From a virus: a stretch of 13,526 bases of DNA. The position numbers and the translations under genes were made by a program. Below the pieces are notes generated by a model. That model did not search any database, had not been told where the DNA came from, and saw only the letters and a program-made list of their open reading frames with translations. Where the stretch lies: the UHGV virus genome UHGV-1806156; one strand, given 5' to 3'. Shown piece after piece: positions 1-13,526 of this stretch (position 1 is its first letter; each line of letters begins with the position of its first letter).

Positions 1-98
1 TAAGGGAAAAGCTTAACCCACAAATGAAAGCCTAAAGAGCATGAGCGACTCTTTAGGCAATCTGTGTGGGGAACATCGGAGCAGTATGTGAAGTATGA
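1..98. repeat. Left copy of a 98-bp direct repeat (same as 13429-13526)
   Basis: Positions 1-98 match 13429-13526 base for base except one T/C difference (position 54 vs 13482). The repeat runs to both window edges, so its full extent is unknown. Confidence 0.9.
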
Positions 99-437
99 GC
101 AGACTGTGATGATGTGACTTATATCTATGCGTATAACAGCCTCCGCTGTTTACGCTCTTTGTGTGGGTCCGGCGAATGCGTCAGCATGAGGCCCACAATG
201 TGGACCGCTGCCGAAAGCTTGCCAGCGCCGGAAGGAGGCAGCAAAGAGTCTCCCGCGCGCATGTGTGGGCGTATACGTAAGATATACATTCATAAATCCA
301 ATTCTAGGCCCATAAATGGCCTTCTGGCTGCATTAACTAGTGTGAGTAGTGCAATTGCATTACCTGACCTCTAAATCGCGTTAGAATTGATTTTAGAGCG
401 CCTAAGGCAAAAAGTGCTCTCCCTCCCTTGTGGGCCA

Positions 438-467
438 TTGACAATCTTATTGCATAAATGCTATAAG
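438..467 (+). promoter_or_regulatory. Sigma70-like promoter candidate (-35 TTGACA 438-443, 18-bp spacer, -10 TATAAG 462-467)
   Basis: Hexamers read directly; one of five ATTGACAAT-type sites in 437-765. Confidence 0.3.
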
Positions 468-566
468 TGATTTTGGTTTTGACACGGTAGGGGCCATTAA
501 TAATGCTTACCCCTTTGCTGTGGACTTGCTTGTACATATAGCATACCTAAATGATAATAATTCTCA

Positions 567-595
567 TTGACAATTGGTTGACAATATGATAAGAT
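567..595 (+). promoter_or_regulatory. Sigma70-like promoter candidate (-35 TTGACA 567-572, 17-bp spacer, -10 TAAGAT 590-595)
   Basis: Hexamers read directly; a second TTGACA at 578-583 overlaps it. Sits upstream of the sORF at 631. Confidence 0.3.
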
Positions 596-630
596 TATAA
601 ATAGGGGGAGAAACAGATCCGGAGGTCAAT

Positions 631-780
631 GTGGAAATTACTGATGCAATAGCGATCATCAACCTGGCTGTACTGTGGTGCGGTGTTGCCTACATAGCCG
701 GAGTGACTGCAATCGACAATCTTGAAGAAAAAATGATAGATAAATACAAAAAGATTGTTGACAATTTGACGAATGTCTGA
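631..780 (+). CDS. Small ORF, 49 aa, GTG start, predicted single transmembrane helix (VEITDAIAIINLAVLWCGVAYIAGVTAIDNLEEKMIDKYKKIVDNLTNV)
   Basis: GGAGG at 621-625 sits 5 nt before GTG 631, stop TGA at 778-780. Hydrophobic N-terminal stretch. Below the 60-aa cutoff of the ORF track. Confidence 0.3.
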   Translation: MEITDAIAIINLAVLWCGVAYIAGVTAIDNLEEKMIDKYKKIVDNLTNV

Positions 781-786
781 TAAAAT
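758..786 (+). promoter_or_regulatory. Sigma70-like promoter candidate (-35 TTGACA 758-763, 17-bp spacer, -10 TAAAAT 781-786), likely driving the operon starting at 913
   Basis: Near-consensus hexamers with 17-bp spacing, about 125 bp upstream of ATG 913. Confidence 0.45.
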
Positions 787-912
787 ATAAAGCATAGGGT
801 AATTCTCATCATAGTGAATTTCCTTTAGTAGACTGGCGGGGGCTTGTCTTAAGTTCCCGTTTCTTTTTAATCATATATCGCACAGGTTAGTGAGCTGACA
901 GGAGATTGAATC

Positions 913-1128
913 ATGGCTAAAACCGGACCGATAAGCCAGCTGGTAAACTGGACTACTGACGAAATCGTCGAGAACGTGCTTAAAGGTAACTTTCGAAAAA
1001 CTTCCGTTTATGCATTTATTCGTAAACACAAAGGAGAATATCCACACATTGAAGCGGCAATTTTAGAACTGAATCGTCTCCGCCTTGAGCGTGAGCTGGC
1101 TAAATACACCAACAACATTAATAAATAA
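913..1128 (+). CDS. Hypothetical small protein, 71 aa
   Basis: ORF with AGGAGA RBS 7 nt upstream of ATG 913; first gene after a long non-coding region. No recognisable family. Confidence 0.55.
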   Translation: MAKTGPISQLVNWTTDEIVENVLKGNFRKTSVYAFIRKHKGEYPHIEAAILELNRLRLERELAKYTNNINK

Positions 1129-1141
1129 CTGTGGGGGAACT

Positions 1142-2038
1142 ATGGCAAGTAATTACGGGGAGGTTTTTAATCCCCATTTCGAACGCCTCATTCAGTATAC
1201 TTTTGATAAACCAGTTGCAACAACAATTGCTAATAAAAAGACTGGAAAAACAAAAGAAAGATTTAAGTTAGACCTGACGGAGGTTACAATTTATGGAAAA
1301 ATGGCAGGTTTTCATTTAAACGGGCAAGAAATATTTATCTCAGAGCAGACCTTAGCAAAAATATGTGGAGTGAGCGATAGAAAAATCCGTGATTCGATTA
1401 AATCTCTAGAAAATGCCGGGCTTATTTCTAAAGATAATCGGAAAGGCATGTCTAATATTTACAAACTACTAATTACTCCTTCACAGGTTTGCAAAATGTG
1501 TGACGCTCAAGGAATACAACCTATGAGCAATGCAGGTGGTGAAGATAAACAGCCTCAGGAAGCCCCAAAACAAGCCGCACAGCAAGCTAAAAAGGCTAAA
1601 GTAGTGCAATTGCCTACCCAAGACACTAAAGCGCCTCAAATTAACGCTGTTAGTGACAAGCCACGCCGGGGCCGTCCTGTGAAAGATGTAACCGATGGAG
1701 GGTGGATCGCCCTGGGTGAGAGTGAGGCTAAAGGCATAATGCGATCACTGTGGGAAAGCAAATACAAAGATTTAAACAAACGTCGCCCGATCCTTTTGTC
1801 AAAGATTCAGGAGGATTTTTACACCACAGAAGAGGTAAGCCGACATAAAGGGAAAATAGAGGGTGAAATCTGGAAACCGGAAGAATACTGGCATTTAACC
1901 AGACCTGTGTTTATTTTTGCAAATAAGCTTATTGGGATGGGATTTGAAATATTGTTAGATAAAACCTGCGGAGATTATCCCGAAATATTGTGGAGAAATG
2001 TTAGAAAAAATAAAAAAGGCATTTTAGAGTTTAAATAA
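1142..2038 (+). CDS. Putative replication initiator-like protein with winged helix-turn-helix, 298 aa
   Basis: ATG at 1142 preceded by GGGGGA RBS, right after the stop of the 913 ORF; the track's 1085 start is an upstream in-frame extension. The segment FISEQTLAKICGVSDRKIRDSIKSLENAGLISKDNRKG resembles the wHTH of phage and plasmid replication initiators. Function from motif recognition only. Confidence 0.45.
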   Translation: MASNYGEVFNPHFERLIQYTFDKPVATTIANKKTGKTKERFKLDLTEVTIYGKMAGFHLNGQEIFISEQTLAKICGVSDRKIRDSIKSLENAGLISKDNRKGMSNIYKLLITPSQVCKMCDAQGIQPMSNAGGEDKQPQEAPKQAAQQAKKAKVVQLPTQDTKAPQINAVSDKPRRGRPVKDVTDGGWIALGESEAKGIMRSLWESKYKDLNKRRPILLSKIQEDFYTTEEVSRHKGKIEGEIWKPEEYWHLTRPVFIFANKLIGMGFEILLDKTCGDYPEILWRNVRKNKKGILEFK

Positions 2039-2085
2039 AAACACTGATAATCTTATTTTTTACAGTATTCTAAAGGAAATTTAAA

Positions 2086-2232
2086 ATGTATGGCGATTTT
2101 GATTATTACCTGGAAAAGGAAAAATATTTTGAAGATGAACTATCACAACATTTTTCATATTGGGAAGAATATTGTGGTTGGTTAGCTGAAGATCCAGCAG
2201 ATGAAGAAAACGATTCTGACATCCCTTATTGA
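2086..2232 (+). CDS. Small acidic ORF, 48 aa (MYGDFDYYLEKEKYFEDELSQHFSYWEEYCGWLAEDPADEENDSDIPY)
   Basis: ATG 2086 with AAGGAAA RBS about 6 nt upstream, stop TGA 2230-2232. Strongly acidic and aromatic-rich. Below the ORF-track cutoff. Confidence 0.35.
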   Translation: MYGDFDYYLEKEKYFEDELSQHFSYWEEYCGWLAEDPADEENDSDIPY

Positions 2233-2316
2233 TATCCCCAAATAAACTAAATAAATAAACTAAGCACTAGAACTAGATTGATTGCCCTGATCTTTTAAAC
2301 GTTCGGAGAATTAATC

Positions 2317-2805
2317 ATGTTCAAATCTAATCTTTCTGATTCTCAATTCGAAAAACTGGTAGCACTGCAGAAATATCTTCCCAGTGATGATCAACCAACA
2401 CGACAGGCTAAACACTTATTAGTCGAGGGCTTTACCCCTGAATTCGTGGCGGAATATACAGGCGTTAAACTTGATAAAGTCCAAAAACTATATAATGAGT
2501 CCTGGAATCCACGGTGTCGAGTTCCCCTCAGTGTCTATAACGACATAGATAGAGATAAAAATGTCTTCGAAGATCGCCGCCGCAAATCTCTTTTAATGTG
2601 GAATTGTGGGATGAATATTGAAGAGATAGCAAAAGAATTAAAAGTAACCTGCTTTCATATATGGGGCTTGTTGAGTGAAATCCTGCCACGTAAGGAGCTT
2701 AATCAACGTTTGCCTAAGCCCGGTAGTCGTGCTTATCGCGAATTTATATTCATCTACCGCCGCCATAGAAATAAAGTCCAGAAAGCAATGGCCCAGAAAG
2801 CTTGA
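2317..2805 (+). CDS. Putative DNA-binding regulator with two HTH-like segments, 162 aa
   Basis: GGAGA RBS before ATG 2317. Two segments with HTH character: GFTPEFVAEYTGVKLDKVQKL and GMNIEEIAKELKVTCFHIWGLL. Confidence 0.5.
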   Translation: MFKSNLSDSQFEKLVALQKYLPSDDQPTRQAKHLLVEGFTPEFVAEYTGVKLDKVQKLYNESWNPRCRVPLSVYNDIDRDKNVFEDRRRKSLLMWNCGMNIEEIAKELKVTCFHIWGLLSEILPRKELNQRLPKPGSRAYREFIFIYRRHRNKVQKAMAQKA

Positions 2806-2878
2806 GTTTTATCTCTTCGATTTATTTATTTTCGACTCACTTTAACCCCTTCCGGGGCTCTAATTTAAGGAATTCCAA

Positions 2879-3322
2879 ATGTCTCAAATCGCTAAATTAT
2901 TATCCCAGGTTATCAAAGCTATCGACGCTGAAGATTCAAAAGTTCGCCAGGATCTTTTAGATGGCAAGTTTACCAACACCCTGGCATTTACCCGTGACAA
3001 AGAGCACTTCTTAAAACACAGGCATCACGCTTTTCCTGAATGCAAGTCCGCTAATGGTGATGTTTTCTATGTCGATTTGGTGGTTATGGCATGTAGGCTG
3101 TGGATGATTCAGGACCTTATGCGCCAACACGGTGATGATCCTCTTATCAGCATGTGGAACAGCGCCCAGGATGGCTTTGTGATTGCTGCCTTATCCAAAT
3201 CAATGATTGAGGCAGAAGGGGCAAGCCTTCAGAACATGGCAGATCTCTTTGAAATAAGCGTAGGAATGATGCAGACCATGCTCCAAGCTGTCAAACCTCT
3301 CAAACTGGTTAATCTTGATTAA
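2879..3322 (+). CDS. Hypothetical protein, 147 aa
   Basis: AAGGA RBS before ATG 2879; no recognisable family. Confidence 0.55.
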   Translation: MSQIAKLLSQVIKAIDAEDSKVRQDLLDGKFTNTLAFTRDKEHFLKHRHHAFPECKSANGDVFYVDLVVMACRLWMIQDLMRQHGDDPLISMWNSAQDGFVIAALSKSMIEAEGASLQNMADLFEISVGMMQTMLQAVKPLKLVNLD

Positions 3323-3382
3323 GCTATTGATAAATAAGCACTCCCCATTTTTTGGGGGGTGCATCAATGAGAGGATATGCCT

Positions 3383-3766
3383 ATGAATATTGAAGAAATG
3401 ATAGTTGAATTCGAAGAGGGTGATTTCCTGGAAGAAGGGGAGTTTAGTTACTCCCATTTTAAACAGGCGTTATTTAGCAGCGATGATAAACCACACGTTA
3501 GTGATCTTAACGACGATGATTTATGTCGTTGGGTATGCACCCGCTTAAATGAAGATGGAAAGTATACAGGCCAAAACTTTCCAAATCTCTATTTCAAAGC
3601 ACAAACATTTGAGGAAGGGCAAAGAGTGAAAAACCTGGTCGATAAAATGCTGTCAGCCGGATATTTGCATAAAGAATTATTAAATCCTAAAGCTGAAAGC
3701 AAGCGCCATTATATTTTTGTGTGGACTATTGGCGATAAGTGTCCACTAAGACGCAAAGGCAAATGA
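3383..3766 (+). CDS. Acidic protein, 127 aa; possible tail assembly chaperone by position
   Basis: GAGAGGA (3369-3375) is 7 nt before ATG 3383; the track's ATG 3377 is too close to the RBS. Acidic N-terminus and position two genes upstream of the tape measure gene. Function is positional inference only. Confidence 0.4.
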   Translation: MNIEEMIVEFEEGDFLEEGEFSYSHFKQALFSSDDKPHVSDLNDDDLCRWVCTRLNEDGKYTGQNFPNLYFKAQTFEEGQRVKNLVDKMLSAGYLHKELLNPKAESKRHYIFVWTIGDKCPLRRKGK

Positions 3767-3767
3767 T

Positions 3768-4004
3768 ATGAATACCTACGAAAAGATTTATCAAAAACTG
3801 GTTAAGGACTCCGAAGACACGCCCGAAGGGGTGACAGTAGGTCACCTGCCAGAGGCAGCGAAAGAGGGGGCCACCATTATTAAAAGTGGCTCCCACACAG
3901 AAGGCCTCTCAATCGAAGAGCTGGCGGAGAAATATAATATTGATAAAGAGGCCCTGAAAAGGGCTATTTCATTATCAAAATCTTTAAGACAGGGCGAGGT
4001 ATAA
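3768..4004 (+). CDS. Hypothetical protein, 78 aa, translationally coupled between the acidic protein and the tape measure gene
   Basis: Starts 1 nt after the preceding stop and ends 1 nt before ATG 4006. Confidence 0.45.
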   Translation: MNTYEKIYQKLVKDSEDTPEGVTVGHLPEAAKEGATIIKSGSHTEGLSIEELAEKYNIDKEALKRAISLSKSLRQGEV

Positions 4005-4005
4005 A

Positions 4006-6153
4006 ATGGCAATGAAGGAAGTAGCCAGACTAACAAACGTTATTTACTGGGACTCTGATAAATCCTCCTGGCGAAAAGAAGTTAAACGGCTTGAGGATTA
4101 TAAAAAATCCTGGAAGAAAGCTACCGACGATATAGCTAAAGCTGATTTTAAATCTAATCAGGCTGTGCTCAGAACACAAAGAACACGCGCTAAGGTGGAA
4201 GAGCAGATAGCCAGAGCTCAGAGGAAACAACAGGAAGCACAGAAGAAACAACGTGCTCAGGCTGTCAGCCGTCTGACCGGGGGCAACAATGCCGAACTTA
4301 ACTCTATGCGCAAGTTCTACCAACAACAAGCCAGAGAAGCCGCCAGACAACAAAAACTGTTAGATCGTAGTGTTGGAGATGTTCAGCACAGAAAAGCACG
4401 TGTAGGGGCCAACAGTGCACGAATCAGCAGCATGTTTGATGGCTCCCTGGTTGCTCAGTTCCAGGGGCGCATTCAAAGAGTTAATGCTGATTATGCTAAA
4501 GGGGCTATAAACCTGCAGACCTATAATCAGAGGATGGCCCGACTCAGATCTGAAATGAAGATGGCAACAGCCGAAGCCGGAAAATTCCAGAGCAGACTAG
4601 ACAGAGCTGCGGCCGCAGGCTCCAGGCTGCATGACAACCTGGGGAAACTGAATTCCACACTGGGCAAGATAGCCATTGGCCTTACTGCCGCTGGCTGGGG
4701 TGTTCAGCGTGCTGTTAGTGGTGCTATGGGTAGCCTTGCAGATCGCAACAGTGCTTATTTCGGCTTAATGTCACAGAACAAGGATGATAAATCAAAAACT
4801 GATCAGCAGATGGCTTTTATCAAGAACACAGCCTACACCTACGGGATGGATCAGCGTGAGATGGAAGGCGGCTACATGCGCTTTGCTGCAGCTACCCCCA
4901 CCATGAAGGAATCTGATAAGCAGGCTCTCTTTGAGGCTATGGCTATTAAAGGCCGCTCAGTGGGTGCTACTGGCGAGCAACAGAACAGGGCGCTTGTTGC
5001 GGTCCAACAAATGGCTTCAAAAAATAAAGTCATGGCGGAGGAGCTGCGTGGGCAGCTGGCAGAAGCCTTTGCAGGCTCACAACAGGACTTCCAACAGGCC
5101 GCTATTGATGCCGGAATCATCAAAAATACCCAGGAATTCGATAAAGCCCTTAAAGATGGCAAAATCACCCTGGACAAGCTACTTCCTTCCCTAGTGAAAA
5201 TTTGGGGTGCTGCAAAAGAAACTAAAGCTTTTGCTGAATCCATGAAACAGCCAGAAGTAGCAATGCAGCGCATGAAAAACAGCTTTAACGAGCTGGCGAT
5301 TCAGTTTATGGGTGTTGTGGATCCTGCGGATGGCGTTATTAGCTTATCTGAATCTCTGATCTCCATCTTTGAAGACCTCACCACTGATATGGACGGCAGC
5401 GGGAGCGCGGCAAAACAGTTCGGTGAGGCAGTCGGGTCTGCCATGCGTGAGATCATGTATTGGGTAGGCTTCGCTAAGGGATATATTGAGGTCAAGGCTA
5501 AAGAGTTCGGCATGACCGGATCAGAGGTTGGCGAGCTTATCGGGAAACTGGTAGTCGGCTTAGCTGGTCTGAAAGTTATTACCACACTGCTTTCCCCTCT
5601 AACCGGATTTGTTTCACTTGTCACCCAACTGATTTCTCTGATAGGCAAGATTCCAGGTCTGGGCAATCTCGTTAAGGGTGCTGGCGGGGCAGTCGCTGGA
5701 AGCCCAACAACAGCATTAGCCGCTGGCAGTGCCGCAGGTGTGGGTGTTGGTGTCGCTGGCGCACTAGGCGCTAAGACGGTAGGTGAGAAGTTCAGAGGAT
5801 GGATGCAAAGCAAGGCTGATCAGTTCGGGGAGTGGGCTAAATCTAAAGGCCTGCTTAGCGATGAACAGGACGCTATGACCAAACCGGGGGCCTATAACCA
5901 TAGCTACATCAACAAGGGAGCTTCCTTTAATCCATATCCAACCATTAGCCCTTCACGTCCTACTCCTAGCACTGGTACGGCTATTCAGAATGGCGGATAT
6001 CAACCAGTCCAAGTAAATGTAGCCCCACAAGGTGAGATTTCCGGCAAATGGGAGATAACCATCGATGAGGGGGGAATTGCCAGGGTGATCCAGAAGGAAG
6101 TTAGCGATCAGTTGGATTGGAAAGCCACACAGGAATCTAACCAGCTTTTCTAA
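4006..6153 (+). CDS. Phage tail tape measure protein-like, 715 aa
   Basis: Long Q/R/K/A-rich helical N-terminal region, a central segment that reads like a tape-measure domain (AAATPTMKESDKQALFEAMAIKGRSVGATGEQQNRALVAVQQMASKNKVMAEELRGQLAEAF), and a Gly/Ala-rich hydrophobic block (LAGLKVITTLLSPLTGFVSLVTQLISLIGKIPGLGNLVKGAGGAVAG...). Recognised by eye, not by search. Confidence 0.6.
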   Translation: MAMKEVARLTNVIYWDSDKSSWRKEVKRLEDYKKSWKKATDDIAKADFKSNQAVLRTQRTRAKVEEQIARAQRKQQEAQKKQRAQAVSRLTGGNNAELNSMRKFYQQQAREAARQQKLLDRSVGDVQHRKARVGANSARISSMFDGSLVAQFQGRIQRVNADYAKGAINLQTYNQRMARLRSEMKMATAEAGKFQSRLDRAAAAGSRLHDNLGKLNSTLGKIAIGLTAAGWGVQRAVSGAMGSLADRNSAYFGLMSQNKDDKSKTDQQMAFIKNTAYTYGMDQREMEGGYMRFAAATPTMKESDKQALFEAMAIKGRSVGATGEQQNRALVAVQQMASKNKVMAEELRGQLAEAFAGSQQDFQQAAIDAGIIKNTQEFDKALKDGKITLDKLLPSLVKIWGAAKETKAFAESMKQPEVAMQRMKNSFNELAIQFMGVVDPADGVISLSESLISIFEDLTTDMDGSGSAAKQFGEAVGSAMREIMYWVGFAKGYIEVKAKEFGMTGSEVGELIGKLVVGLAGLKVITTLLSPLTGFVSLVTQLISLIGKIPGLGNLVKGAGGAVAGSPTTALAAGSAAGVGVGVAGALGAKTVGEKFRGWMQSKADQFGEWAKSKGLLSDEQDAMTKPGAYNHSYINKGASFNPYPTISPSRPTPSTGTAIQNGGYQPVQVNVAPQGEISGKWEITIDEGGIARVIQKEVSDQLDWKATQESNQLF

Positions 6154-6204
6154 TATTGTGATCAAAATCAATAAGTTAGCCTGACCGGATAAACTCCAGG
6201 CAAG

Positions 6205-6242
6205 AAAAAAGCCCCTAAGTGTTAACAAAGGGGCTCTTCTCC
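6205..6242. terminator. Hairpin terminator between convergent operons (stem AGCCCCT 6210-6216 / AGGGGCT 6229-6235)
   Basis: 7-bp GC-rich stem with 12-nt loop. On the minus strand it is followed by a run of six T (plus-strand A 6205-6210); on the plus strand by a weaker T-rich tract. Confidence 0.5.
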
Positions 6243-6266
6243 GGTATCCTTTTGATGCGGGGCGAA

Positions 6267-6310
6267 CCTGCTAACAAAAATCAACCTCTCGCGAGACTAA
6301 TGTTAGCAGG
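6267..6310. other. Stem-loop with perfect 10-bp stem (CCTGCTAACA / TGTTAGCAGG) whose 24-nt loop carries TCAACCTCTCGCGAGA
   Basis: Inverted repeat read directly. The loop contains the 10-bp palindrome TCTCGCGAGA and matches the leader motif at 10547 and 11089. Confidence 0.4.
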
Positions 6311-6655
6311 TTGCCGGAAGGTAAGTCAACTCCGGCCTATAAACCTTAAAGCGACTATAAAATCGCCCCGCCAATTGTGATGATCCGACCTTTGAGGCGG
6401 GTCCGGTGCCCAGGGGGGTGCAGTGATGCACAAACCAGGCAACGATAAACAGGCTAACAGTGATAGCGGCGCTCTCTCAGCGCACTAAATCCTAACCAGT
6501 CCGGGAAAGAGGCTGGCTCTATCGACCGCTCATGCACGGGACAATGCATACCTGATAAAGGATTCTCACAAGGGACCAATCGCGAGAAAAAGAAGTGGAA
6601 AGGGGCTGATTTGTGGTGTATCACTACGGCCTCAAAAGAACACTATTGTCTTTTT

Positions 6656-7114
6656 TCAGCCTCTCCCAACATTTGACCAGTATTTGATTGCACCGATCAA
6701 ATCATCATAGTGGCGCATTGCATCATTGAAGCCTTTATAGCTTGCCCATTGTGGGGAAACCTTGTTATTGCTGAATTGCCCACTAATCAGGATAGTCTCC
6801 AGAATGTCGGCATATCGCTTACCAATACGCTTTCTGACGGCCTCAGAGCTCCCACCCTTTACGATTGCATTAATCAGGGCTTTTGTGTGTCTCAGGCTCT
6901 CATAGAGCATTGCAGCGTGGGCAGATTCCATAAAGGAGCGCTTAGGCAAATCACCCCACCCCTCAGAGTGGATAGCCGCCAGTGTGGCGTAATTCAGGCC
7001 GCTATAGTGCTTTCCGTCATCCCAGCCAACCGCTACACCTTCCATCTGTGAGAGCTCTTTATGCAGCTTATCCATCATGCGCTTGTCTATGGTGCAACGG
7101 ACTTTCGGACTCAT
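6656..7114 (-). CDS. HK97 gp10-like head-tail (neck) family protein, 152 aa
   Basis: Segment GVAVGWDDGKHYSGLNYATLAAIHSEGWGDLPKRSF fits the pattern I associate with the HK97 gp10 family. GGAG RBS upstream; ATGA overlap with the preceding gene. Confidence 0.45.
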   Translation of the reverse strand: MSPKVRCTIDKRMMDKLHKELSQMEGVAVGWDDGKHYSGLNYATLAAIHSEGWGDLPKRSFMESAHAAMLYESLRHTKALINAIVKGGSSEAVRKRIGKRYADILETILISGQFSNNKVSPQWASYKGFNDAMRHYDDLIGAIKYWSNVGRG

Positions 7115-7914
7115 TTGTTGATCTCCGTGATGTCATCAAGCAACATGTTGGCCTTATCAATCATCGTTTCGTGGAATTCATTCGACACAACAGACTTATC
7201 ACCTGCGGCAATCTTTCCAGCTGCCTCTCCCTGTGCATATTCCCCGCGATGCTTAGCCCTGGTAGATTTCGTAGCAGCATTGCCAGCGTTACTACCCTCT
7301 TTAGCACTGTTAACAGCACCCTTTTGCTGTGTTTTATTCACCTTCTTACTGTTAGTGAAAACTCCGGCATTTTCGACCATCTTCACCTTGAAGGTGCGGA
7401 ATTCTTCAAAGGTGCAATCGATAGTGATGCAGTCACCGGAGGAAGAGCTACGCTTAACTTCACATTTCGTCATGATGAAGTTCTCAAGGAGTCCGGCATC
7501 TTCACTCACCAGGCTAACCAGCTGGCGCTTGTCTCTCATTTCCATAAGTGCCTGAACAGCGGCAGCAGGGCGCATAGATTCACGGGGATTATCTGGATCA
7601 GTGTTCCGGTCGATGTAGTTCTCTTTCCGGATAATGTGAGGGGAAGAGGTAATAATACCCGTAAAGCTGACAGATTTATCTTTAATGACGGCATGGTCTG
7701 ACATGGTGGTGCCATCTTCTACTGCATAGCTCGACTTTTCGACAGGGAACGAATAACGAACATCAGAGATAGAGTCAAAGAAGATAGCCACATTATCGGT
7801 ATAGTTGAAGCCATCCATTATATTTTTGTTTTGTGAATATCCCCCACACATAACAGTGAATGCGGGAGATCTCGACTCAGCTTGTTTTGCAGCTGTCAGA
7901 GCATCACTAGCCAT
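7111..7914 (-). CDS. Hypothetical protein, 267 aa (start placed at the ATG at 7914)
   Basis: Minus ORF 7111..7941 begins at a GTG; the in-frame ATG at 7914 has GGAGG 10 nt upstream. Normal amino-acid composition, unlike the Cys/Ser/Leu-rich plus-strand ORFs it overlaps. Confidence 0.55.
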   Translation of the reverse strand: MASDALTAAKQAESRSPAFTVMCGGYSQNKNIMDGFNYTDNVAIFFDSISDVRYSFPVEKSSYAVEDGTTMSDHAVIKDKSVSFTGIITSSPHIIRKENYIDRNTDPDNPRESMRPAAAVQALMEMRDKRQLVSLVSEDAGLLENFIMTKCEVKRSSSSGDCITIDCTFEEFRTFKVKMVENAGVFTNSKKVNKTQQKGAVNSAKEGSNAGNAATKSTRAKHRGEYAQGEAAGKIAAGDKSVVSNEFHETMIDKANMLLDDITEINK

Positions 7915-8042
7915 AGTAAACATGCCTCCAAATTGGTCCACTTCATGGATTTGGCTAAAGCCAAACCTGCAAAAGATGCAGGCAAAATAGAACTTATCGT
8001 TGCCCTGCGTGAATTCTGATAAAAAGACAGGGCTATCTATCG

Positions 8043-8303
8043 TTATTTTGCAAAACGATTATGCGCATTCAGGGCTTTTTTGCGGTCCTGGGCTTGTTTG
8101 CGTGCAATAAAATGTTCGAAAGTCTCGGCCCAGGTGCATTTATTATATTCACGGTATTTATGCATAGCCTGGCGGCTAACGTCATAGCAGGCGGCAAATG
8201 TGGAGATACGCAGGAATTCCGGCAGATCCTCGTCATCGATATGGATAATATCAAAAGGCACGTCGTCACGGTCGCCGTATAAAACAATTTTCATAAAAGA
8301 CAC
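8043..8303 (-). CDS. Small HTH DNA-binding protein, 86 aa
   Basis: GAGGTG RBS upstream of ATG 8303. HTH-like segment LRISTFAACYDVSRQAMHKY. Role unknown. Confidence 0.5.
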   Translation of the reverse strand: MSFMKIVLYGDRDDVPFDIIHIDDEDLPEFLRISTFAACYDVSRQAMHKYREYNKCTWAETFEHFIARKQAQDRKKALNAHNRFAK

Positions 8304-8327
8304 CTCAAAAACTTAAGACGGGGATAA

Positions 8328-8377
8328 CAAAAAAGGGAAGAGGGAAAGACCTATCCCCGATCTCTCACCTCTTCCCT
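8328..8377 (-). terminator. Hairpin terminator just downstream of the capsid gene (stem AGGGAAGAGG 8334-8343 / CCTCTTCCCT 8368-8377)
   Basis: 10-bp stem followed on the minus strand by a T run (plus-strand A 8328-8333), immediately after the capsid stop at 8384-8386. Confidence 0.45.
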
Positions 8378-8383
8378 TTGCTT

Positions 8384-9418
8384 TTATTTAGCCTTGGCAG
8401 CGGCGGCGGTGTTTTTAACACTCACTTTCACCACAACTTCAGGCATCATGTTCATGAAAGCATAAGAGGATTCAACGAAGATTTCGCGTTTGCCTCTGGA
8501 CTCTTCCATATACATGAAAGCTTCACGTGCAGCGCCGTTTGCCAGCTTCAGGTTGCGAGCGCAAGGGCCGAAAAATTGAGTATAAACGCCCACCATATCG
8601 CCTAACGCATGCGGCTGGAACTGTGGGACTAGATAAGCAGTATTCTCTGGCAGACTATCCATTTGCACCACACGCAGGGCTAAGCCCGGAATGCGGAAGG
8701 TCGGGAAGCCCGGCAGAATATCCTCAGGGAACATCAGACCTTTGTCGGTAATGTTCTGATTGCCGAACAACAGCACTTTACGGAGCAGTTCATCAGTCTG
8801 AATAGCGGTAAACAGTTCAGCACGGCAGAACAGGGTGAAACCACGCAGGGCACGAACGACACCACGCTGTTTAACCTTGCTCAGTGCAACCAGGTCCTGC
8901 AGCTGTTTAAGGATATCTTTAGCTAGATCCACTTCTGAAGTGGTTTGCTGTGCGCCCAGCAGTTCGCACACATTCAGTTCTTTACCCTTGGTGAGGATAA
9001 TTTTGTTCTCAAAGAGAGCAAGCTGGCGTGCTTCTTCGTGGGTCTGGCGTAAGCCTTCGCCAAGCTGAATAACACGACGAGCGGTTACAGACTCTAGATT
9101 CTCTTCGGAATCTTTGCCCGGAACACGGATACCCTGCCAGTCAGAAGGATAAATAGCACTTGATGCGGCAGTGAATGCCATATCACCCGTGCCCGTTTCA
9201 CGCTCATCTGCGGTAATGGTCGCCATCTGTTCACCGTAGCGCGGATACTGACCGAAAGCGGTTTGTTTCACCTGGCGAACTTTGTCATATTCAAATTTAA
9301 AGGTATTGCACAGAGCAGTAGTGTTGAAGATATCCATTGCAGAAATAATCATGTTATCCGGCGGGATATCTTTAATCAGACCACACAGATCGCGAACTTC
9401 GAATTCTTTCTTAGCCAT
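8384..9418 (-). CDS. Major capsid protein, lambda gpE family-like, 344 aa
   Basis: ATG at 9418 with AAGGAGG RBS 8 nt upstream; the track's extension to 9517 has no RBS. N-terminus FEVRDLCGLIKDIPPDN fits the L-x-G-x-[IV]-x-x-x-PP pattern seen in gpE-family capsids. Size (lambda gpE is 341 aa) and a small beta-rich gene directly upstream agree. Confidence 0.6.
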   Translation of the reverse strand: MAKKEFEVRDLCGLIKDIPPDNMIISAMDIFNTTALCNTFKFEYDKVRQVKQTAFGQYPRYGEQMATITADERETGTGDMAFTAASSAIYPSDWQGIRVPGKDSEENLESVTARRVIQLGEGLRQTHEEARQLALFENKIILTKGKELNVCELLGAQQTTSEVDLAKDILKQLQDLVALSKVKQRGVVRALRGFTLFCRAELFTAIQTDELLRKVLLFGNQNITDKGLMFPEDILPGFPTFRIPGLALRVVQMDSLPENTAYLVPQFQPHALGDMVGVYTQFFGPCARNLKLANGAAREAFMYMEESRGKREIFVESSYAFMNMMPEVVVKVSVKNTAAAAKAK

Positions 9419-9429
9419 TTTCAACCTCC

Positions 9430-9765
9430 TTATTGTGCAACACGCAAATCGCCATTGCTGGCAGCAACAACAGCGGCTAAGCCGTCTTTGTCCACATAGG
9501 CCGGATTGATGTAGCAACCTTTGTTCGCAACAACGATAAAGGAATCACCAACTTCAGCACGTTCTACAACCAGCAGCGGAGTTTTATCTGTGTGCGTTGC
9601 TTTAACGAAGGTCTCAACCTCGCCAGCCTCAGTCACCACAACAACAGTGCCAGCCGGAATCTCAGCCTTAACTTTGTTTTTAACTTCAACGTCGCGAATA
9701 CTAAATTGCTCATCTGCGGCGTATGAAATGATGTGTCCGCGTGTGCGGATAGTCATATCTCTCAT
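9430..9765 (-). CDS. Putative head decoration protein (lambda gpD-like), 111 aa
   Basis: AGGTGA RBS before ATG 9765. Small, beta-rich (Val/Thr/Ala/Gly), immediately upstream of the capsid gene as in lambda D-E. Assignment is positional and compositional. Confidence 0.4.
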   Translation of the reverse strand: MRDMTIRTRGHIISYAADEQFSIRDVEVKNKVKAEIPAGTVVVVTEAGEVETFVKATHTDKTPLLVVERAEVGDSFIVVANKGCYINPAYVDKDGLAAVVAASNGDLRVAQ

Positions 9766-10093
9766 TTGATCACCTGCGATTTAAATTAACTCCCCTCAAA
9801 GGGCTCAGGTATAACCTCTCAAACCACGACAGGCTCGGGCCGAAAAGTTATGCCGGAAATCTAAAGGGGGATTGATATAAGGAGAGGGAGATAGCCCCGC
9901 ACCGTCCAAGCGGGGGCTATTCCACATGGGGAAACCAACAACAGTTGGCTGATAGTTCACTGCATGGTTACAGGTTGCTAGAGAGCACTATCACGAAAGG
10001 CACTCCCCCGGATCAGTTCAGGCTGCGGTCACATCAGCGGGGAAATACCTTTCGGGATAGCTACCCACACAGAAAACCCGCAAAAGAAAACTG

Positions 10094-10102
10094 TGTGGAT
10101 AA
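10094..10102 (-). promoter_or_regulatory. DnaA box (TTATCCACA on the minus strand) inside an inverted repeat (CCACACAG 10065-10072 / CTGTGTGG 10091-10098)
   Basis: Exact 9-mer match to the DnaA box consensus, read directly. Confidence 0.35.
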
Positions 10103-10248
10103 CTAGCCCTGTAGGGAGAATAAGGAGAATTAATCGACCACTCTAAGATGATCATGGGTAGTGTTATTTATAAGGCGGCACCGCTACCTGGTCGCCTTTA
10201 CTTTGGAGGAAAATACGGCAAATCACCTTCGCTAAATGATTCACGGTA

Positions 10249-10268
10249 TACTGTATATTATATCAGTA
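10249..10268. promoter_or_regulatory. LexA (SOS) box-like palindrome TACTGTATATTATATCAGTA
   Basis: CTG-N10-CAG architecture with flanking TA and an AT-rich core, as in gammaproteobacterial LexA boxes. Lies in the large intergenic region between the capsid operon and the small-peptide operon. Confidence 0.45.
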
Positions 10269-10546
10269 TTTACTCACATTGTCAACACCCTGATTATATA
10301 AATTCTAATAATTAGCGTAGTAACGGTATTTTCAGACTGCTATCAATCCCATCAATACGTCATCTCATCGCATCTATCATAACTTTTTCATTCGTGATAG
10401 ATATCTTTTGATCAATATCAATGTTTTCCGGGGATTTGCCCGGCTATAGTTCGAATCAAGGAAGGGGAGCATTGATAGAGACACCCAAAGGGGTGACTGA
10501 AAGTCACCTGGCATAGCCAGTGAAAGCACCCAACCGAACAAACAAA

Positions 10547-10564
10547 TCAACTTCTCGCAAAAGG
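10547..10564 (+). promoter_or_regulatory. Conserved leader motif TCAACTTCTCGCAAAAGG, 26 nt upstream of ATG 10573
   Basis: Repeated with the same spacing upstream of ATG 11115 (11089-11107); a third variant sits in the hairpin loop at 6281-6296. Confidence 0.4.
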
Positions 10565-10572
10565 TGATAGTT

Positions 10573-10695
10573 ATGGGTATCAAGAACAGTGCCAGCGCAT
10601 GGCAAAAGGCCAGGTTTCATCACCCACACATTGTTAAGGCAATTGAGGTGGTTGGAGTTTTAGCCCTGATGTTAGCTCTGTGTGTGGAGGTGTGA
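10573..10695 (+). CDS. Small hydrophobic peptide, 40 aa (MGIKNSASAWQKARFHHPHIVKAIEVVGVLALMLALCVEV)
   Basis: AAGGTG RBS before ATG 10573; C-terminal hydrophobic helix. Below the ORF-track cutoff. Confidence 0.35.
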   Translation: MGIKNSASAWQKARFHHPHIVKAIEVVGVLALMLALCVEV

Positions 10696-10696
10696 G

Positions 10697-10777
10697 ATGG
10701 GCAAAGGAGGCAAAGCATTTTTAATAGGTCTGGCTATCCTGGATGTTCTACTAATCATGATTAAGCGGAGTTTATGA
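10697..10777 (+). CDS. Small hydrophobic peptide, 26 aa (MGKGGKAFLIGLAILDVLLIMIKRSL)
   Basis: ATG 10697 starts 1 nt after the previous stop, with AGGTG just upstream. One predicted TM helix and a basic C-terminus. Confidence 0.3.
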   Translation: MGKGGKAFLIGLAILDVLLIMIKRSL

Positions 10778-10796
10778 ACAGCATTGAGAGGAGTTT

Positions 10797-11057
10797 ATGA
10801 CGGGGGCTAAAGATATCAGGAGACTGAGGGAAGAGCTGATAGCTGAAATTAAAACTAAGGCAAAGCAAATGGAGATAGCCGCACAAATGGATGTAGCGGA
10901 ACAGATGTACAAGATGGTTGAGGAGGGAACGCCACGACAGGTTATCGCTAAAACCTTCGGTGTGGGGATCGCCACCGTGCACAGAAGGCTGAAAGCATAT
11001 GCTGACTACCACAATATCGAGAGAAAGGAGGATGGGAGATTCAGGAAAGCTAAATGA
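10797..11057 (+). CDS. Small DNA-binding protein with a Hin/resolvase-type C-terminal HTH, 86 aa, no recombinase catalytic domain
   Basis: GAGAGGAG RBS before ATG 10797. C-terminus EEGTPRQVIAKTFGVGIATVHRRLKA closely matches the Hin invertase HTH; the N-terminus is a short charged helix only. Confidence 0.55.
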   Translation: MTGAKDIRRLREELIAEIKTKAKQMEIAAQMDVAEQMYKMVEEGTPRQVIAKTFGVGIATVHRRLKAYADYHNIERKEDGRFRKAK

Positions 11058-11088
11058 TGTAAACGGTCCAACAGGTTACTAACTTAAT

Positions 11089-11107
11089 TCAACTTCTCGC
11101 AAAGGGG
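11089..11107 (+). promoter_or_regulatory. Second copy of the leader motif (TCAACTTCTCGCAAAGGGG), 26 nt upstream of ATG 11115
   Basis: 15/15 identity with the copy at 10547 over TCAACTTCTCGCAAA, same distance to the start codon. Confidence 0.4.
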
Positions 11108-11114
11108 TACCACT

Positions 11115-11702
11115 ATGAACATTAAAACTATCATTGCAGCCCTCACCATTGCCTTTAGTGCCAACACCGCAGCTATTGATGTAGGGGCCGTAAAAGATGC
11201 ATCTTGTGCTGATAAACTGGCGGCACTTGATGCGGGATTCGATGCACCCCAGGGCTATCAAATGGGGCTATCTCTTAAAAATATTATTCTCCCCATGGAA
11301 TCTGGCGCTTATGTATACGGAGCGATAGGAAAACTGGAGAAGCCGGAAATTGACCTGCAGGGTGTGAGAGCGAAGATCACTAAAAGAAATGAAAGCCTTT
11401 GTGATGTAGCTGAAATAGCTTTCATGTCAGACGATGAAAAATCTATTTTAGTCTTTTGCAAAGATAGCGATGATAATGATCGCTTCTTTAAGATCACCCA
11501 CAACAGGCCAATCTCTTTCTACTCTAATGCTACTATGGGCGCGGGTATGCAGTGGCTGAAGAGAGCTAAATTAACTGAGATCGACATTGAAAAAGAGGCC
11601 AATGCAGGCAGTTATGGATTCTGGAAAGGCTGGACTAAATACACGTTCCAACAATGCGGCATCGATAGTCAGGCCTACGACAACGGATTTTGGTTTTTCT
11701 AA
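11115..11702 (+). CDS. Secreted or outer-membrane protein with N-terminal signal peptide, 195 aa
   Basis: N-terminus MNIKTIIAALTIAFSANTAA has the basic/hydrophobic/A-x-A shape of a Sec signal peptide. C-terminus ends in aromatics (GFWFF), as many outer-membrane beta-barrels do. No family recognised. Confidence 0.55.
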   Translation: MNIKTIIAALTIAFSANTAAIDVGAVKDASCADKLAALDAGFDAPQGYQMGLSLKNIILPMESGAYVYGAIGKLEKPEIDLQGVRAKITKRNESLCDVAEIAFMSDDEKSILVFCKDSDDNDRFFKITHNRPISFYSNATMGAGMQWLKRAKLTEIDIEKEANAGSYGFWKGWTKYTFQQCGIDSQAYDNGFWFF

Positions 11703-11722
11703 CCTACTAAGTTAATCCCGCC

Positions 11723-11750
11723 AGGGGGCCATCACGGCCCCTTTTTATTT
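11723..11750 (+). terminator. Rho-independent terminator after the signal-peptide gene
   Basis: GC-rich stem GGGGGCC (11724-11730) / GGCCCC (11736-11741) with 5-nt loop, followed by TTTTTATTT. Confidence 0.55.
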
Positions 11751-11800
11751 ATCCCCTATTTAACCCCTATTTAATGGGTATTTAATGCCTATTTATTGAT
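11746..11800. repeat. Five tandem 11-bp units of form TATTTAANNNN (helically phased A/T tracts)
   Basis: TATTTATCCCC, TATTTAACCCC, TATTTAATGGG, TATTTAATGCC, TATTTATTGAT read directly; an 11-bp period suggests bent DNA or phased binding sites. Confidence 0.5.
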
Positions 11801-13063
11801 TTAATCCGTTTTATGCCACAACCGCCCGGTTGACAGAGTAAGATAGAGTGTGTAACCCTCTTTCGTAATACCAATAAAATCAATAGTTTAGCTCAATTGG
11901 CCTTTTCTCTATTTTTGTCAAATTTAACATACCCTCAAAAACTGCAAAATCTGGCTGCAAGATTATCTGCAGCTGGATTTCTTGCGCCTCAATTTGTGGT
12001 ATCACCCTGACTAGTTTGTGCATAAATTGAACAGTTTTTAACATTTCCTCCTCACCTGGTAACCACACAAAAAGCTAAAAACGAGGCACAGATAATCTTA
12101 GAGGCCTGTTTTCTTGTTATCACTCTGGTAACGTCGTAGAAGTGATTTTGATGAAAGATGACCTACCCTATTACACCCCCATTTTTTGTTATCACAATTG
12201 CATCCTGTGCGGTGTATGGCTATGTGCTGAAAGCGGTCTTATGTGTGGGTGTCAGAAATATCCATTAGCGGTATTAATACCCGTCGGAGATTCGTCTGAG
12301 GTGCCAGGCAGGCGCTCCCCCACCTCCCTTTTTTCTTCTAACAATTCTCAAATATCACACCACTGCCCACCACGTTGCTATTATGTTAATTCTTAAGCTT
12401 TGCTGTATGTTGTGCACATTATTTATTCAGGTGGCTGTACGTAAATTCTGTGCCCACTGATCATGATTTTTAAATCAGATTTTGTAGTGCGCTTTATTAG
12501 TGTAGATAAGATCTATTATGTTAAATGCATCTCTCTCAACACTTAAAATCAATGACTTAGAGGTTAGGATGCACTAACACCCCACACAGCACATTAGACA
12601 TATAGATGTCTATACCCCACATTTTTGATTGTTTTGTAGTCATTCCCCTGATCATTTAACCAGTATAGTTTGCTCCCTGCAGACCACAAAATCGGAATTT
12701 ACATCTGATTAACATAATCTGTTAGCATGATCACCATTACCCACACAACAATAACCACATGTAAGCCTCTTCAGGCAATTTATCGGCGTGTTGGTGTGAA
12801 CAGTCTTTCATGTTCTTTATGTATTCATTGTCCTGTGTGAGGGAAGGATGGACTGCCCCAGGGGCCATACTTATGATGCCCGGTCAACATACCTGTCGAT
12901 AAAATCAAAGGGTGTTGATCTGCATATTTCCCACACATGAGAGGAAATCAAAGCAAAGAGAGAGGAGAGAGGTTTGTTAGTCAAAATAGGTCAATAAGGG
13001 TGTATTTCCACACAGACATGATGAGATAACCTGTCGGTATTTCCTACAACTCTTGCACATACC

Positions 13064-13341
13064 CCGGAAGATTTTTCCGGTGTCTCCCACCTGTGAAGAA
13101 TTTTCACACCTGTAAATCCATACAGCACGGTAAAAACTACCGCACCACCTGTGAAAATATTTTACTACTCCCTTTAGTCATACCCCTTTCAGTCATACTC
13201 AGGCACCACACCCCGGTAAATATTTCCCTACCACCCCGGAGAATTTCTCCGGTGTCCAAGCTGTATCCAATACATACCCCGGAAAATTTCTCCGCACTAC
13301 TACGGAAGATTTCTCCGGTGTACCCCGGAAGATTTCTCCGA
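13064..13341. repeat. Iteron-like array of at least 8 copies of a 17-bp quasi-palindrome (consensus about CCGGARRATTTCTCCGG)
   Basis: Copies at 13064-13080, 13236-13252 (perfect palindrome CCGGAGAATTTCTCCGG), 13279-13295, 13302-13318 and 13325-13341, the last three spaced exactly 23 bp apart. Related variants at about 13094-13108, 13150-13164 and 13214-13226. Confidence 0.6.
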
Positions 13342-13428
13342 CTAATAAATAAAGTAATAGACCACACAATAGATCCCCCCTAACCCCCAAGGGGAATGGG
13401 GAGGGATCAGAGAGTGGGGAAGGTTTTC

Positions 13429-13526
13429 TAAGGGAAAAGCTTAACCCACAAATGAAAGCCTAAAGAGCATGAGCGACTCTTCAGGCAATCTGTGTGGGGA
13501 ACATCGGAGCAGTATGTGAAGTATGA
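13429..13526. repeat. Right copy of the 98-bp direct repeat
   Basis: Matches 1-98 with one mismatch (C at 13482 vs T at 54). Confidence 0.9.

What the first reader, a model, noticed from the sequence alone, without database searches (positions are those of the whole stretch)
13429..13526. Terminal 98-bp direct repeat with a single mismatch: att-like repeats, terminal redundancy or circular overlap
Both window ends lie in the same 98-bp sequence, differing at one base (T at 54, C at 13482). A circular assembly overlap is normally identical, so the mismatch favours genuine direct repeats such as attL/attR or a tandem array. The repeat runs to the window edge, so its true length is unknown.
Basis: seen in the sequence. 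Interest (0 to 1): 0.55.

Follow-up and report, generated by a model that had tools for sequence, protein, structure and literature searches.

The report
End overlap of circular plasmid contig
The 98-base repeat at both ends of the window is where an assembler's linear print-out of a 13,428-bp circular, phage-like E. coli plasmid laps over itself; it is not an integration site or a true terminal repeat, so the finding itself is ordinary.

Summary
Bases 1-98 and 13429-13526 are the same sequence with one difference (T54 / C13482), and both copies are flush with the window ends. The favoured interpretation (attL/attR or a tandem array) is not supported. An independent metagenome scaffold (L016) is the same 13,428-bp circle, with 0 differences, but it is opened 8 kb away. 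There the 98-mer is single-copy and internal, and the 13428|1 junction is contiguous. Twenty-one more assemblies of the family carry one recognisable copy per unit (nine are partial contigs or diverged there), and they break at many different places, often with exact k-mer overlaps of 30 or 55 bp. Every E. coli genome hit is a 13.2-13.7 kb plasmid and none is chromosomal. There is no integrase, tRNA, terminase or portal. The C allele is this strain's own base, and T is the base in all other relatives. L016 has an analogous one-base discrepancy inside its own 105-bp end overlap, so the mismatch is an assembly or minor-variant effect. In passing, the element looks like an undescribed plasmid-borne relative, possibly a satellite, of rV5-like lytic phages. 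The repeat lies at the edge of an array of structured non-coding modules delimited by TGTGTGG, one of which is shared with those phages.

The parts
1..98 (.). Left copy of the terminal overlap (carries T at 54)
   Evidence: T is the base in all other relatives that have this segment.
13429..13526 (.). Right copy of the terminal overlap (carries C at 13482); redundant with 1-98
   Evidence: C is the base in the single internal copy of the identical circle L016.
1..13428 (.). One complete unit of a circular 13,428-bp plasmid-like element
   Evidence: Rotated L016 equals the window unit with 0/13,428 differences. Finished circular E. coli plasmids of 13.2-13.7 kb are collinear with it.
30..58 (-). 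Conserved hairpin (GCCTAAAGAG-N7-CTCTTTAGGC) inside the repeat, terminator-like on the minus strand; the T/C site is in its 3' arm
   Evidence: Terminator scan. RNA fold is -15.9 kcal/mol (z -3.0) with T and -11.8 (z -0.6) with C. Invariant apart from a loop base in relatives.
63..70 (+). First TGTGTGGG delimiter motif (others at 160-167 and 262-269); ends module A of the non-coding module array
   Evidence: 12 matches in the window against 0.41 expected. Module boundaries across relatives are shown.
1..269 (+). Module array in this window: A (1-71), B (72-167), F (168-269); the repeat covers A plus the first 27 nt of B
   Evidence: module presence/absence among relatives; folds; module F homolog in rV5-like phages.
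13060..13349 (.). Iteron-like direct repeats (CCCCGGAAGATTTCTCCGG, 5 copies) 80-370 bp upstream of the repeat; putative replication origin
   Evidence: Family D2/D6; sequence. The origin function is inferred from the neighbouring Rep gene.
1085..2038 (+). Replication initiator-like protein (HTH_36; phage O-like/DnaD-like Rep)
   Evidence: Pfam and PHROGs.

Best explanation
The window is a whole contig of a circular 13,428-bp extrachromosomal element that an assembler wrote out linearly. The path went once round the circle and 98 bases further, so the first and last 98 bases are two read-outs of one physical locus. The break point is arbitrary. The single T/C difference arises because the two read-outs were built or corrected from different subsets of reads. 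One carries this strain's own base (C). The other carries a minor variant or an error (T), which happens to be the base found in other strains. Shown: circularity, single-copy status, arbitrariness of the break point, and that overlaps containing a mismatch occur in this kind of assembly. Inferred: the exact assembler step that produced the mismatch, and that 98 = k-1 for k = 99.
For: (1) The repeat is flush with both ends, giving a unit of 13,428 bp. (2) L016 (ENA ERZ28658146, 13,533 bp) has its own 105-bp end overlap at window 7978-8082. When rotated it is identical to the window unit (0/13,428 differences using the right-hand copies). The 98-mer occurs once, internally, and 13428|1 is contiguous at L016 5451|5452. 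(3) Seven of nine finished circular E. coli plasmids have one recognisable copy per unit and the 39.6-kb trimer has three; two others are diverged in that segment. The circularised window junction aligns straight through L001. (4) Other assemblies of the family break at many different window coordinates. Several have exact terminal overlaps of 30 bp (four Logan contigs) or 55 bp (a SPAdes NODE contig), the usual signature of circular contigs from a de Bruijn graph. (5) In 5,426 complete E. coli genomes all 10 matching places are on plasmids and none is on a chromosome. (6) No tRNA/tmRNA and no integrase, terminase or portal. (7) The repeat boundaries match no discontinuity in relatives that share the flanks. 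(8) L016 shows the same signature: one C/T discrepancy 51 nt from its end, and its T is a singleton absent from all relatives.
Against: The two copies are not identical, whereas a pure de Bruijn-graph overlap should be. I could not inspect reads, so the source of the T is not shown. L016's overlap is 105 bp, not a standard k or k-1, so the k-1 = 98 reading is only plausible. Assemblies of intracellular DNA cannot tell a circle from a head-to-tail concatemer.
Confidence: 0.95

Rival explanations
1. attL/attR: the element is integrated in a host chromosome and the 98-bp repeats are the duplicated attachment core flanking it.
For: Direct repeats at both ends with a near-perfect match. An 86-aa protein has a resolvase-type HTH (HTH_7).
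Against: No host DNA lies outside the repeats, since they run to the contig ends. No tyrosine or serine recombinase catalytic domain was found. No tRNA/tmRNA. There are 0 chromosomal places in 5,426 E. coli genomes. The identical circle L016 has the junction closed and the 98-mer single-copy. The element has its own Rep gene and iterons.
Confidence: 0.01
2. True direct terminal repeats of a linear, virion-packaged genome (T7-type terminal redundancy).
For: The element encodes a capsid protein and tail proteins, so a packaged form is conceivable. The repeat lies in a non-coding region next to phage-derived sequence.
Against: Independent assemblies of the same or related sequence open at many other coordinates and never at this one. 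The boundaries of the 98-mer are not conserved landmarks. No terminase gene is present. All finished records are circular.
Confidence: 0.02
3. The source DNA is a head-to-tail multimer or rolling-circle concatemer, and the window is one unit plus 98 bp of the next; the T/C difference is a real difference between neighbouring units.
For: One public record (L003, 39.6 kb) is a head-to-tail trimer of the unit. A cyclic assembly graph cannot tell a circle from a concatemer.
Against: Units of a concatemer are copies of one template and should be identical. L003's units differ only by indels typical of long-read error plus one deletion. L016 shows that the mismatch phenomenon sits at the assembler's break point, wherever that falls.
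Confidence: 0.03

Closest known systems
Terminal k-mer overlap of circular contigs from de Bruijn-graph assemblers (the 'direct terminal repeat' used by completeness tools to call circular genomes)
   Same: The repeat is flush with both contig ends, its length is in the k-mer range (98 = 99-1), and its position is arbitrary. Sister contigs of the same family show exact 30-bp and 55-bp overlaps.
   Different: It contains one mismatch. L016 shows the same thing (105 bp, 1 mismatch). Tools that require an exact match of the two ends would miss it (my own knowledge of such tools).
attL/attR direct repeats of integrated satellites and prophages (e.g. P4-like elements, PICIs)
   Same: Direct repeats of tens of bases bounding a roughly 13-kb mobile element that carries phage-related genes.
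   Different: No integrase, no flanking host DNA, no tRNA target and no chromosomal copy in 5,426 E. coli genomes. The element is a plasmid with its own Rep gene and iterons.
Short exact direct terminal repeats of linear phage genomes (T7-like)
   Same: Size class of about 100-200 bp, located in non-coding DNA.
   Different: The ends are not fixed across independent assemblies, and there is no terminase gene.
Phage satellites that encode capsid genes (P4, capsid-forming PICIs) and phage-plasmids. This comparison is for the element, not the repeat.
   Same: A small replicon with a subset of phage morphogenesis genes. These are homologous to one phage group: rV5-like tail-tube initiator 50%, neck protein 45%, tape measure 27%, capsid 25%. 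It also shares non-coding DNA with that phage.
   Different: It is extrachromosomal with no integrase. The candidate helper is a large virulent myovirus. The gene set (capsid, neck, tail-tube initiator, tape measure; no portal or terminase found) matches none of the described satellite families. A 2025 review knows only one plasmid satellite, of an inovirus (PMC12282955). Helper dependence is untested.

Membership tests
Assembly overlap of a circular replicon | Repeat is flush with both contig ends | tested here: met
   1-98 and 13429-13526 in a 13,526-base window.
Assembly overlap of a circular replicon | Sequence is single-copy per unit in independent assemblies, and the junction is contiguous there | tested here: met
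   L016 is the identical circle with the 98-mer internal and single. There is one recognisable copy per unit in 21 other relatives, three in the trimer; nine further loci are partial contigs or diverged in this segment.
Assembly overlap of a circular replicon | Break point is arbitrary (differs between assemblies) | tested here: met
   Contig ends map to many different window coordinates. L011 has a 55-bp exact overlap in the tape-measure gene. L016's overlap is at 7978-8082.
Assembly overlap of a circular replicon | The two copies are identical | tested here: not met
   One mismatch. The same deviation occurs in L016's overlap, so this feature is not strictly defining for this type of assembly.
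Assembly overlap of a circular replicon | Reads span the junction with normal, not doubled, depth | not testable with these tools
   No reads are available.
attL/attR of an integrated element | Integrase or recombinase gene | tested here: not met
   Pfam, PHROGs and NCBIfam scans of all ORFs of at least 50 aa in gene-free stretches and of all main genes found only an isolated HTH_7 domain.
attL/attR of an integrated element | Host DNA outside the repeats, or chromosomal copies | tested here: not met
   The repeats reach the contig ends. There are 0 chromosomal places in 5,426 complete E. coli genomes.
attL/attR of an integrated element | tRNA/tmRNA or other conserved target gene at the junction | tested here: not met
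   ARAGORN found none, and Rfam found nothing above threshold.
Physical direct terminal repeats of a linear phage genome | The same fixed ends in independent assemblies | tested here: not met
Physical direct terminal repeats of a linear phage genome | Doubled read depth over the repeat; defined ends in virion DNA | not testable with these tools
   This needs reads or virion DNA.
Phage satellite (element level) | Partial set of morphogenesis genes homologous to a specific helper phage, with essential ones missing | tested here: met
   Four rV5-like structural homologs. No terminase or portal by HMM, and no unassigned ORF over 200 aa is left to encode one.
Phage satellite (element level) | Helper-dependent packaging and transfer | not testable with these tools
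   This requires an infection experiment.

The most novel reading that the evidence does not exclude
The repeat itself is an artefact, but the circle it reveals may be the complete genome of an undescribed plasmid-borne satellite (or minimal phage-plasmid) of rV5-like (Vequintavirinae) virulent myophages. The non-coding control region in which the contig happens to be opened would then carry an array of structured modules delimited by TGTGTGG. At least one of these (module F) is copied from the phage, and it may serve to capture helper replication, transcription or packaging.
Probability: 0.4. Interest if true: 0.7.

Novelty: not a real feature. Interest (0 to 1): 0.12.

Why it matters
For the finding as given, the result prevents a mis-annotation as att sites or terminal redundancy. 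It also shows that the window is a complete circular genome of 13,428 bp, from which the last 98 bases should be trimmed. It is a practical reminder that end overlaps of circular contigs can contain a mismatch, so exact-match tests for circularity will miss them. Beyond the finding, the circle belongs to a rare family of E. coli plasmids (7 of 5,426 complete genomes). These carry capsid, neck, tail-tube-initiator and tape-measure homologs and non-coding sequence from rV5-like phages. If they are satellites, they would be the first plasmid-type satellites of a tailed lytic phage that I could find in the searchable literature.

Tried and rejected
1. Exact-pattern scans for the hairpin and motif, allowing either allele, in viral, genome and metagenome contig collections gave no hits. 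The allele survey therefore relied on BLAST and protein-anchored loci.
2. Capsid-based locus searches in viral contigs and genome contigs found nothing.
3. Megablast of the whole unit against phages gave no match. Only protein-level and short non-coding similarity exists.
4. Rfam: nothing above threshold in the window, in the module array of L011 or in the rV5 gap. That includes CRISPR-repeat families, so the idea that module E mimics a type I-F repeat is unsupported.
5. tRNA-like reading of module F: ARAGORN finds no tRNA in the window.
6. Covariation in the hairpin of the 98-mer could not be assessed, because the stem is invariant in all relatives that have it.
7. Modules B, C, D, E and G against phages: no match, so the idea of one module per helper lineage is unsupported.
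8. Defence-system models and PDB sequence searches for the small ORFs gave nothing significant.
9. A simple SNP-bubble geometry for a fixed k does not reproduce the positions of the mismatches (53+1+44 in the window, 50+1+54 in L016). I therefore do not claim a specific assembler mechanism.
10. Literature searches for the protein accessions, plasmid names and rV5 with satellite found no description of this family.

Full report
**1. The observation**

Bases 1-98 and 13429-13526 are the same sequence in register. The single difference is T at 54 against C at 13482. Both copies touch the window ends, so the period is 13,428 bp. The next-longest direct repeat in the window is 50 nt at 80% identity. 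A 98-mer with one mismatch cannot arise by chance; my estimate is about 3e-49 expected.

**2. What the window is**

The window matches a small family of Escherichia coli records deposited as circular plasmids of 13.2-13.7 kb, at 92-96% identity over 81-92% of its length. One further record of 39.6 kb is a head-to-tail trimer of the unit.

In 5,426 complete E. coli genomes, seven carry the element. All ten matching places are on plasmids and none is on a chromosome.

The gene set is as follows:
- a replication initiator-like protein (HTH_36, phage O-like)
- an HK97-type major capsid protein
- a tape measure protein and a Dit-like protein
- a neck/tail-completion protein
- a resolvase-type HTH protein without a catalytic domain
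- several small unassigned ORFs

No integrase, terminase or portal was detected by Pfam, PHROGs or NCBIfam. No unassigned ORF over 200 aa remains to encode one. There is no tRNA or tmRNA.

**3. The decisive test**

Exact-protein look-ups returned many further contigs of 13.3-13.7 kb from independent assemblies. One of them is L016, an ENA metagenome scaffold of 13,533 bp.

- L016 has its own terminal overlap of 105 bp, also with exactly one mismatch. That overlap lies at window 7978-8082.
- Its unit length is again 13,428 bp.
- After rotation, L016 and the window are identical at all 13,428 positions when the right-hand copy of each overlap is used.
- In L016 the 98-mer occurs once, internally, and window positions 13428 and 1 are adjacent (L016 5451|5452).

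The two ends of the window are therefore two read-outs of one locus on a circle.

Other assemblies agree:
- Among the 31 related loci examined, 22 carry the hairpin core once per unit (three copies in the trimer, one per unit). The other nine are partial contigs or are diverged in that segment.
- The window's circularised junction aligns straight through L001.
- Contig ends fall at many different window coordinates.
- Four Logan contigs have exact 30-bp end overlaps and a SPAdes contig has an exact 55-bp overlap inside the tape-measure gene. This is the usual mark of circular contigs from de Bruijn graphs.
- The 98-mer's boundaries match no discontinuity in relatives that share the flanks.

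**4. The mismatch**

- All other relatives that have this segment carry T at position 54.
- The only other sequence with C is the internal copy in L016, the identical circle.
- C is therefore this strain's own base. The T in the left-hand copy is either a co-existing minor variant or an error.
- L016 behaves the same way. Inside its overlap one copy has T at window 8028, where its other copy, the window and every relative have C.
- In both contigs the odd base lies 51-54 nt from a contig end.

End overlaps with a single discrepancy are therefore a property of this kind of assembly, not evidence for two loci. The name of L016 resembles those of a large re-assembly resource that used MEGAHIT v1.2.9 (PMC10767986). 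That attribution, and reading 98 as k-1 for k = 99, are inferences. A simple bubble model does not reproduce the exact geometry, and I could not inspect reads.

**5. What the 98 bases are in the real molecule**

They lie in a gene-free region of about 2.8 kb (roughly 11,700-13,428 plus 1-1,085).

- They sit 80-370 bp downstream of five iteron-like repeats at 13060-13349.
- They sit about 470 bp upstream of strong promoter-like sites that face the rep genes.
- They contain a conserved hairpin at 30-58 that scores as terminator-like on the minus strand.
- The T/C site is in the 3' arm of that hairpin. The T form folds at -15.9 kcal/mol (z -3.0) and the C form at -11.8 (z -0.6).
- The stem does not vary among relatives, so covariation cannot be assessed.

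My best guess is that the hairpin ends a minus-strand transcript of the control region. This is an inference with low confidence.

**6. Rivals**

- attL/attR is rejected. There is no recombinase, no host flank, no tRNA and no chromosomal copy, and the junction is closed in an identical circle.
- Physical terminal repeats of a linear genome are not supported, because the ends are not fixed between assemblies and there is no terminase. Only virion DNA could exclude them formally.
- A concatemer or multimer source is topologically indistinguishable from a circle in an assembly graph, but it does not explain a base difference between units. The three units of the public trimer differ only by indels and one deletion.

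**7. Things noticed beyond the finding**

(a) Link to rV5-like phages (Vequintavirinae).
- The Dit-like protein is 50% identical to their tail-tube initiator.
- The 152-aa protein is 45% identical to their Ne1 neck protein.
- The tape measure is 27% identical and the capsid protein 25% identical to theirs.

(b) Shared non-coding DNA.
- Window 197-259 matches an unannotated gap in 120 such phage genomes at 85-87%.
- The 50-nt repeat at 3815-3864 and 10477-10526 matches the phage's 2.5-kb gene-free region.

(c) Module array. From position 1 to about 270 the family carries an array of short hairpin-rich modules, each ending in TGTGTGG(G).
- Their presence varies between relatives: A-B-F here, and A-C-D-E-F, A-D-G, A-E-F, A-F and others elsewhere.
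- Modules C, D and E are always found in that relative order.
- TGTGTGGG occurs 12 times in the window against 0.41 expected.
- The phage copy of module F is bracketed by the same motif.
- Between module F, the phage copy and module G, one helix position has three different self-complementary versions: GCTGCC/GGCAGC, ACCGAC/GTCGGT and GTCCGGAT/ATCCGGAC. The loop between F and the phage copy is almost unchanged.
- Module E and its L007 variant also differ by compensatory changes.
- No Rfam family matches. Modules B, C, D, E and G have no phage counterpart.

(d) Literature. I found no paper describing this plasmid family or a satellite of rV5-like phages. A 2025 review knows only one plasmid satellite, of an inovirus (PMC12282955). 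Helper dependence is untested, so this remains a hypothesis.

**8. Verdict**

The repeat is real in the sequence, but it is not a biological feature. It is the linearisation overlap of a complete circular genome, with a one-base assembly or minor-variant discrepancy. Interest in the finding itself is low. The element it reveals deserves a separate look.

Noticed in passing
window 1-13428 (whole unit): The element belongs to a rare family of 13.2-13.7 kb circular E. coli plasmids (7 of 5,426 complete genomes). These carry homologs of four rV5-like (Vequintavirinae) structural proteins: tail-tube initiator 50%, Ne1 neck protein 45%, tape measure 27% and major capsid 25%. No terminase, portal or integrase was found. 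It may be an undescribed plasmid-borne phage satellite.
   Followed up: partly
window 1-566 (modules A 1-71, B 72-167, F 168-269); relatives L001-L023: A cassette-like array of hairpin-rich non-coding modules (46-105 nt), each ending in TGTGTGG(G). Presence varies between relatives (A-B-F, A-F, A-E-F, A-D-G, A-C-D-F, A-C-D-E-F and others), and modules C, D and E keep their relative order. Variants of module E differ by compensatory changes. No Rfam match. Function unknown.
   Followed up: partly
window 197-259; L028 2501-2563 (rV5_ev168 64480-64542): The core of module F is 85-87% identical to an unannotated 660-bp gap in 120 Vequintavirinae genomes, between RNA-repair genes and a tRNA cluster. 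The phage copy is also bracketed by ATGTGTGG(G) and is preceded by palindromic iteron-like repeats and an AT-rich tract. One helix position has three different self-complementary versions in F, G and the phage.
   Followed up: partly
window 63, 160, 262, 12242 (+); 3892, 7843, 10064, 10623, 12581, 12740, 12930 (-): The octamer TGTGTGGG occurs 12 times (11 per unit) against 0.41 expected, and TGTGKGG occurs 30 times against 2.9. In the rV5 genome the motif clusters in the two regions that share non-coding homology with the plasmid.
   Followed up: partly
window 3815-3864 and 10477-10526: A 50-nt direct repeat (80% identity between copies) is present twice, each copy followed by a CCCACACA motif. 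Both copies match rV5 105663-105713, inside that phage's 2.5-kb gene-free region.
   Followed up: partly
L016 1-105 and 13429-13533 (= window 7978-8082): The identical circle assembled elsewhere also has an end overlap with exactly one C/T discrepancy. The odd base is 51 nt from the contig end, compared with 54 nt in the window. This suggests a systematic assembler signature rather than biology.
   Followed up: partly
window 13060-13349: Five iteron-like copies of a partly palindromic 19-mer (CCCCGGAAGATTTCTCCGG), followed by a C-rich/G-rich inverted repeat at 13373-13397. This is probably the replication origin served by the HTH_36 Rep protein.
   Followed up: no
L003 (NZ_CP043822.1, 39,610 bp): This public 'plasmid' record is a head-to-tail trimer of the unit (13,530 / 13,554 / 12,526 bp). 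Its units differ only by indels and one ~1-kb deletion. It is probably a long-read assembly artefact or a plasmid multimer.
   Followed up: partly
L010 (15,489 bp metagenome contig): This contig is longer than one unit. Its two ends carry rep-region alleles that are only 74-84% identical, which suggests two co-existing variants merged into one contig.
   Followed up: partly
L008 (NZ_CP020521.1), region homologous to window 13391-13428 onward: Homology to the window stops immediately after GGTTTT, one base before window position 1. Module A is replaced there by three copies of a different ~26-nt palindromic repeat (ATCAACATATCAATNTGATATAYTTA). This marks a mosaic hotspot at the edge of the 98-mer.
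   Followed up: no
window 10257-10285 (-): A perfect sigma-70 consensus promoter (TTGACA-17-TATAAT with an upstream TG) faces the capsid operon. Strong promoter-like sites at 567-595 and 758-786 (+) face the rep genes.
   Followed up: no
window 6200-6240 (-): A weak, sub-threshold Rfam hit to ctRNA_p42d (23.6 bits against a gathering score of 50, E 0.25) lies just after the tape-measure gene. It is probably chance.
   Followed up: no
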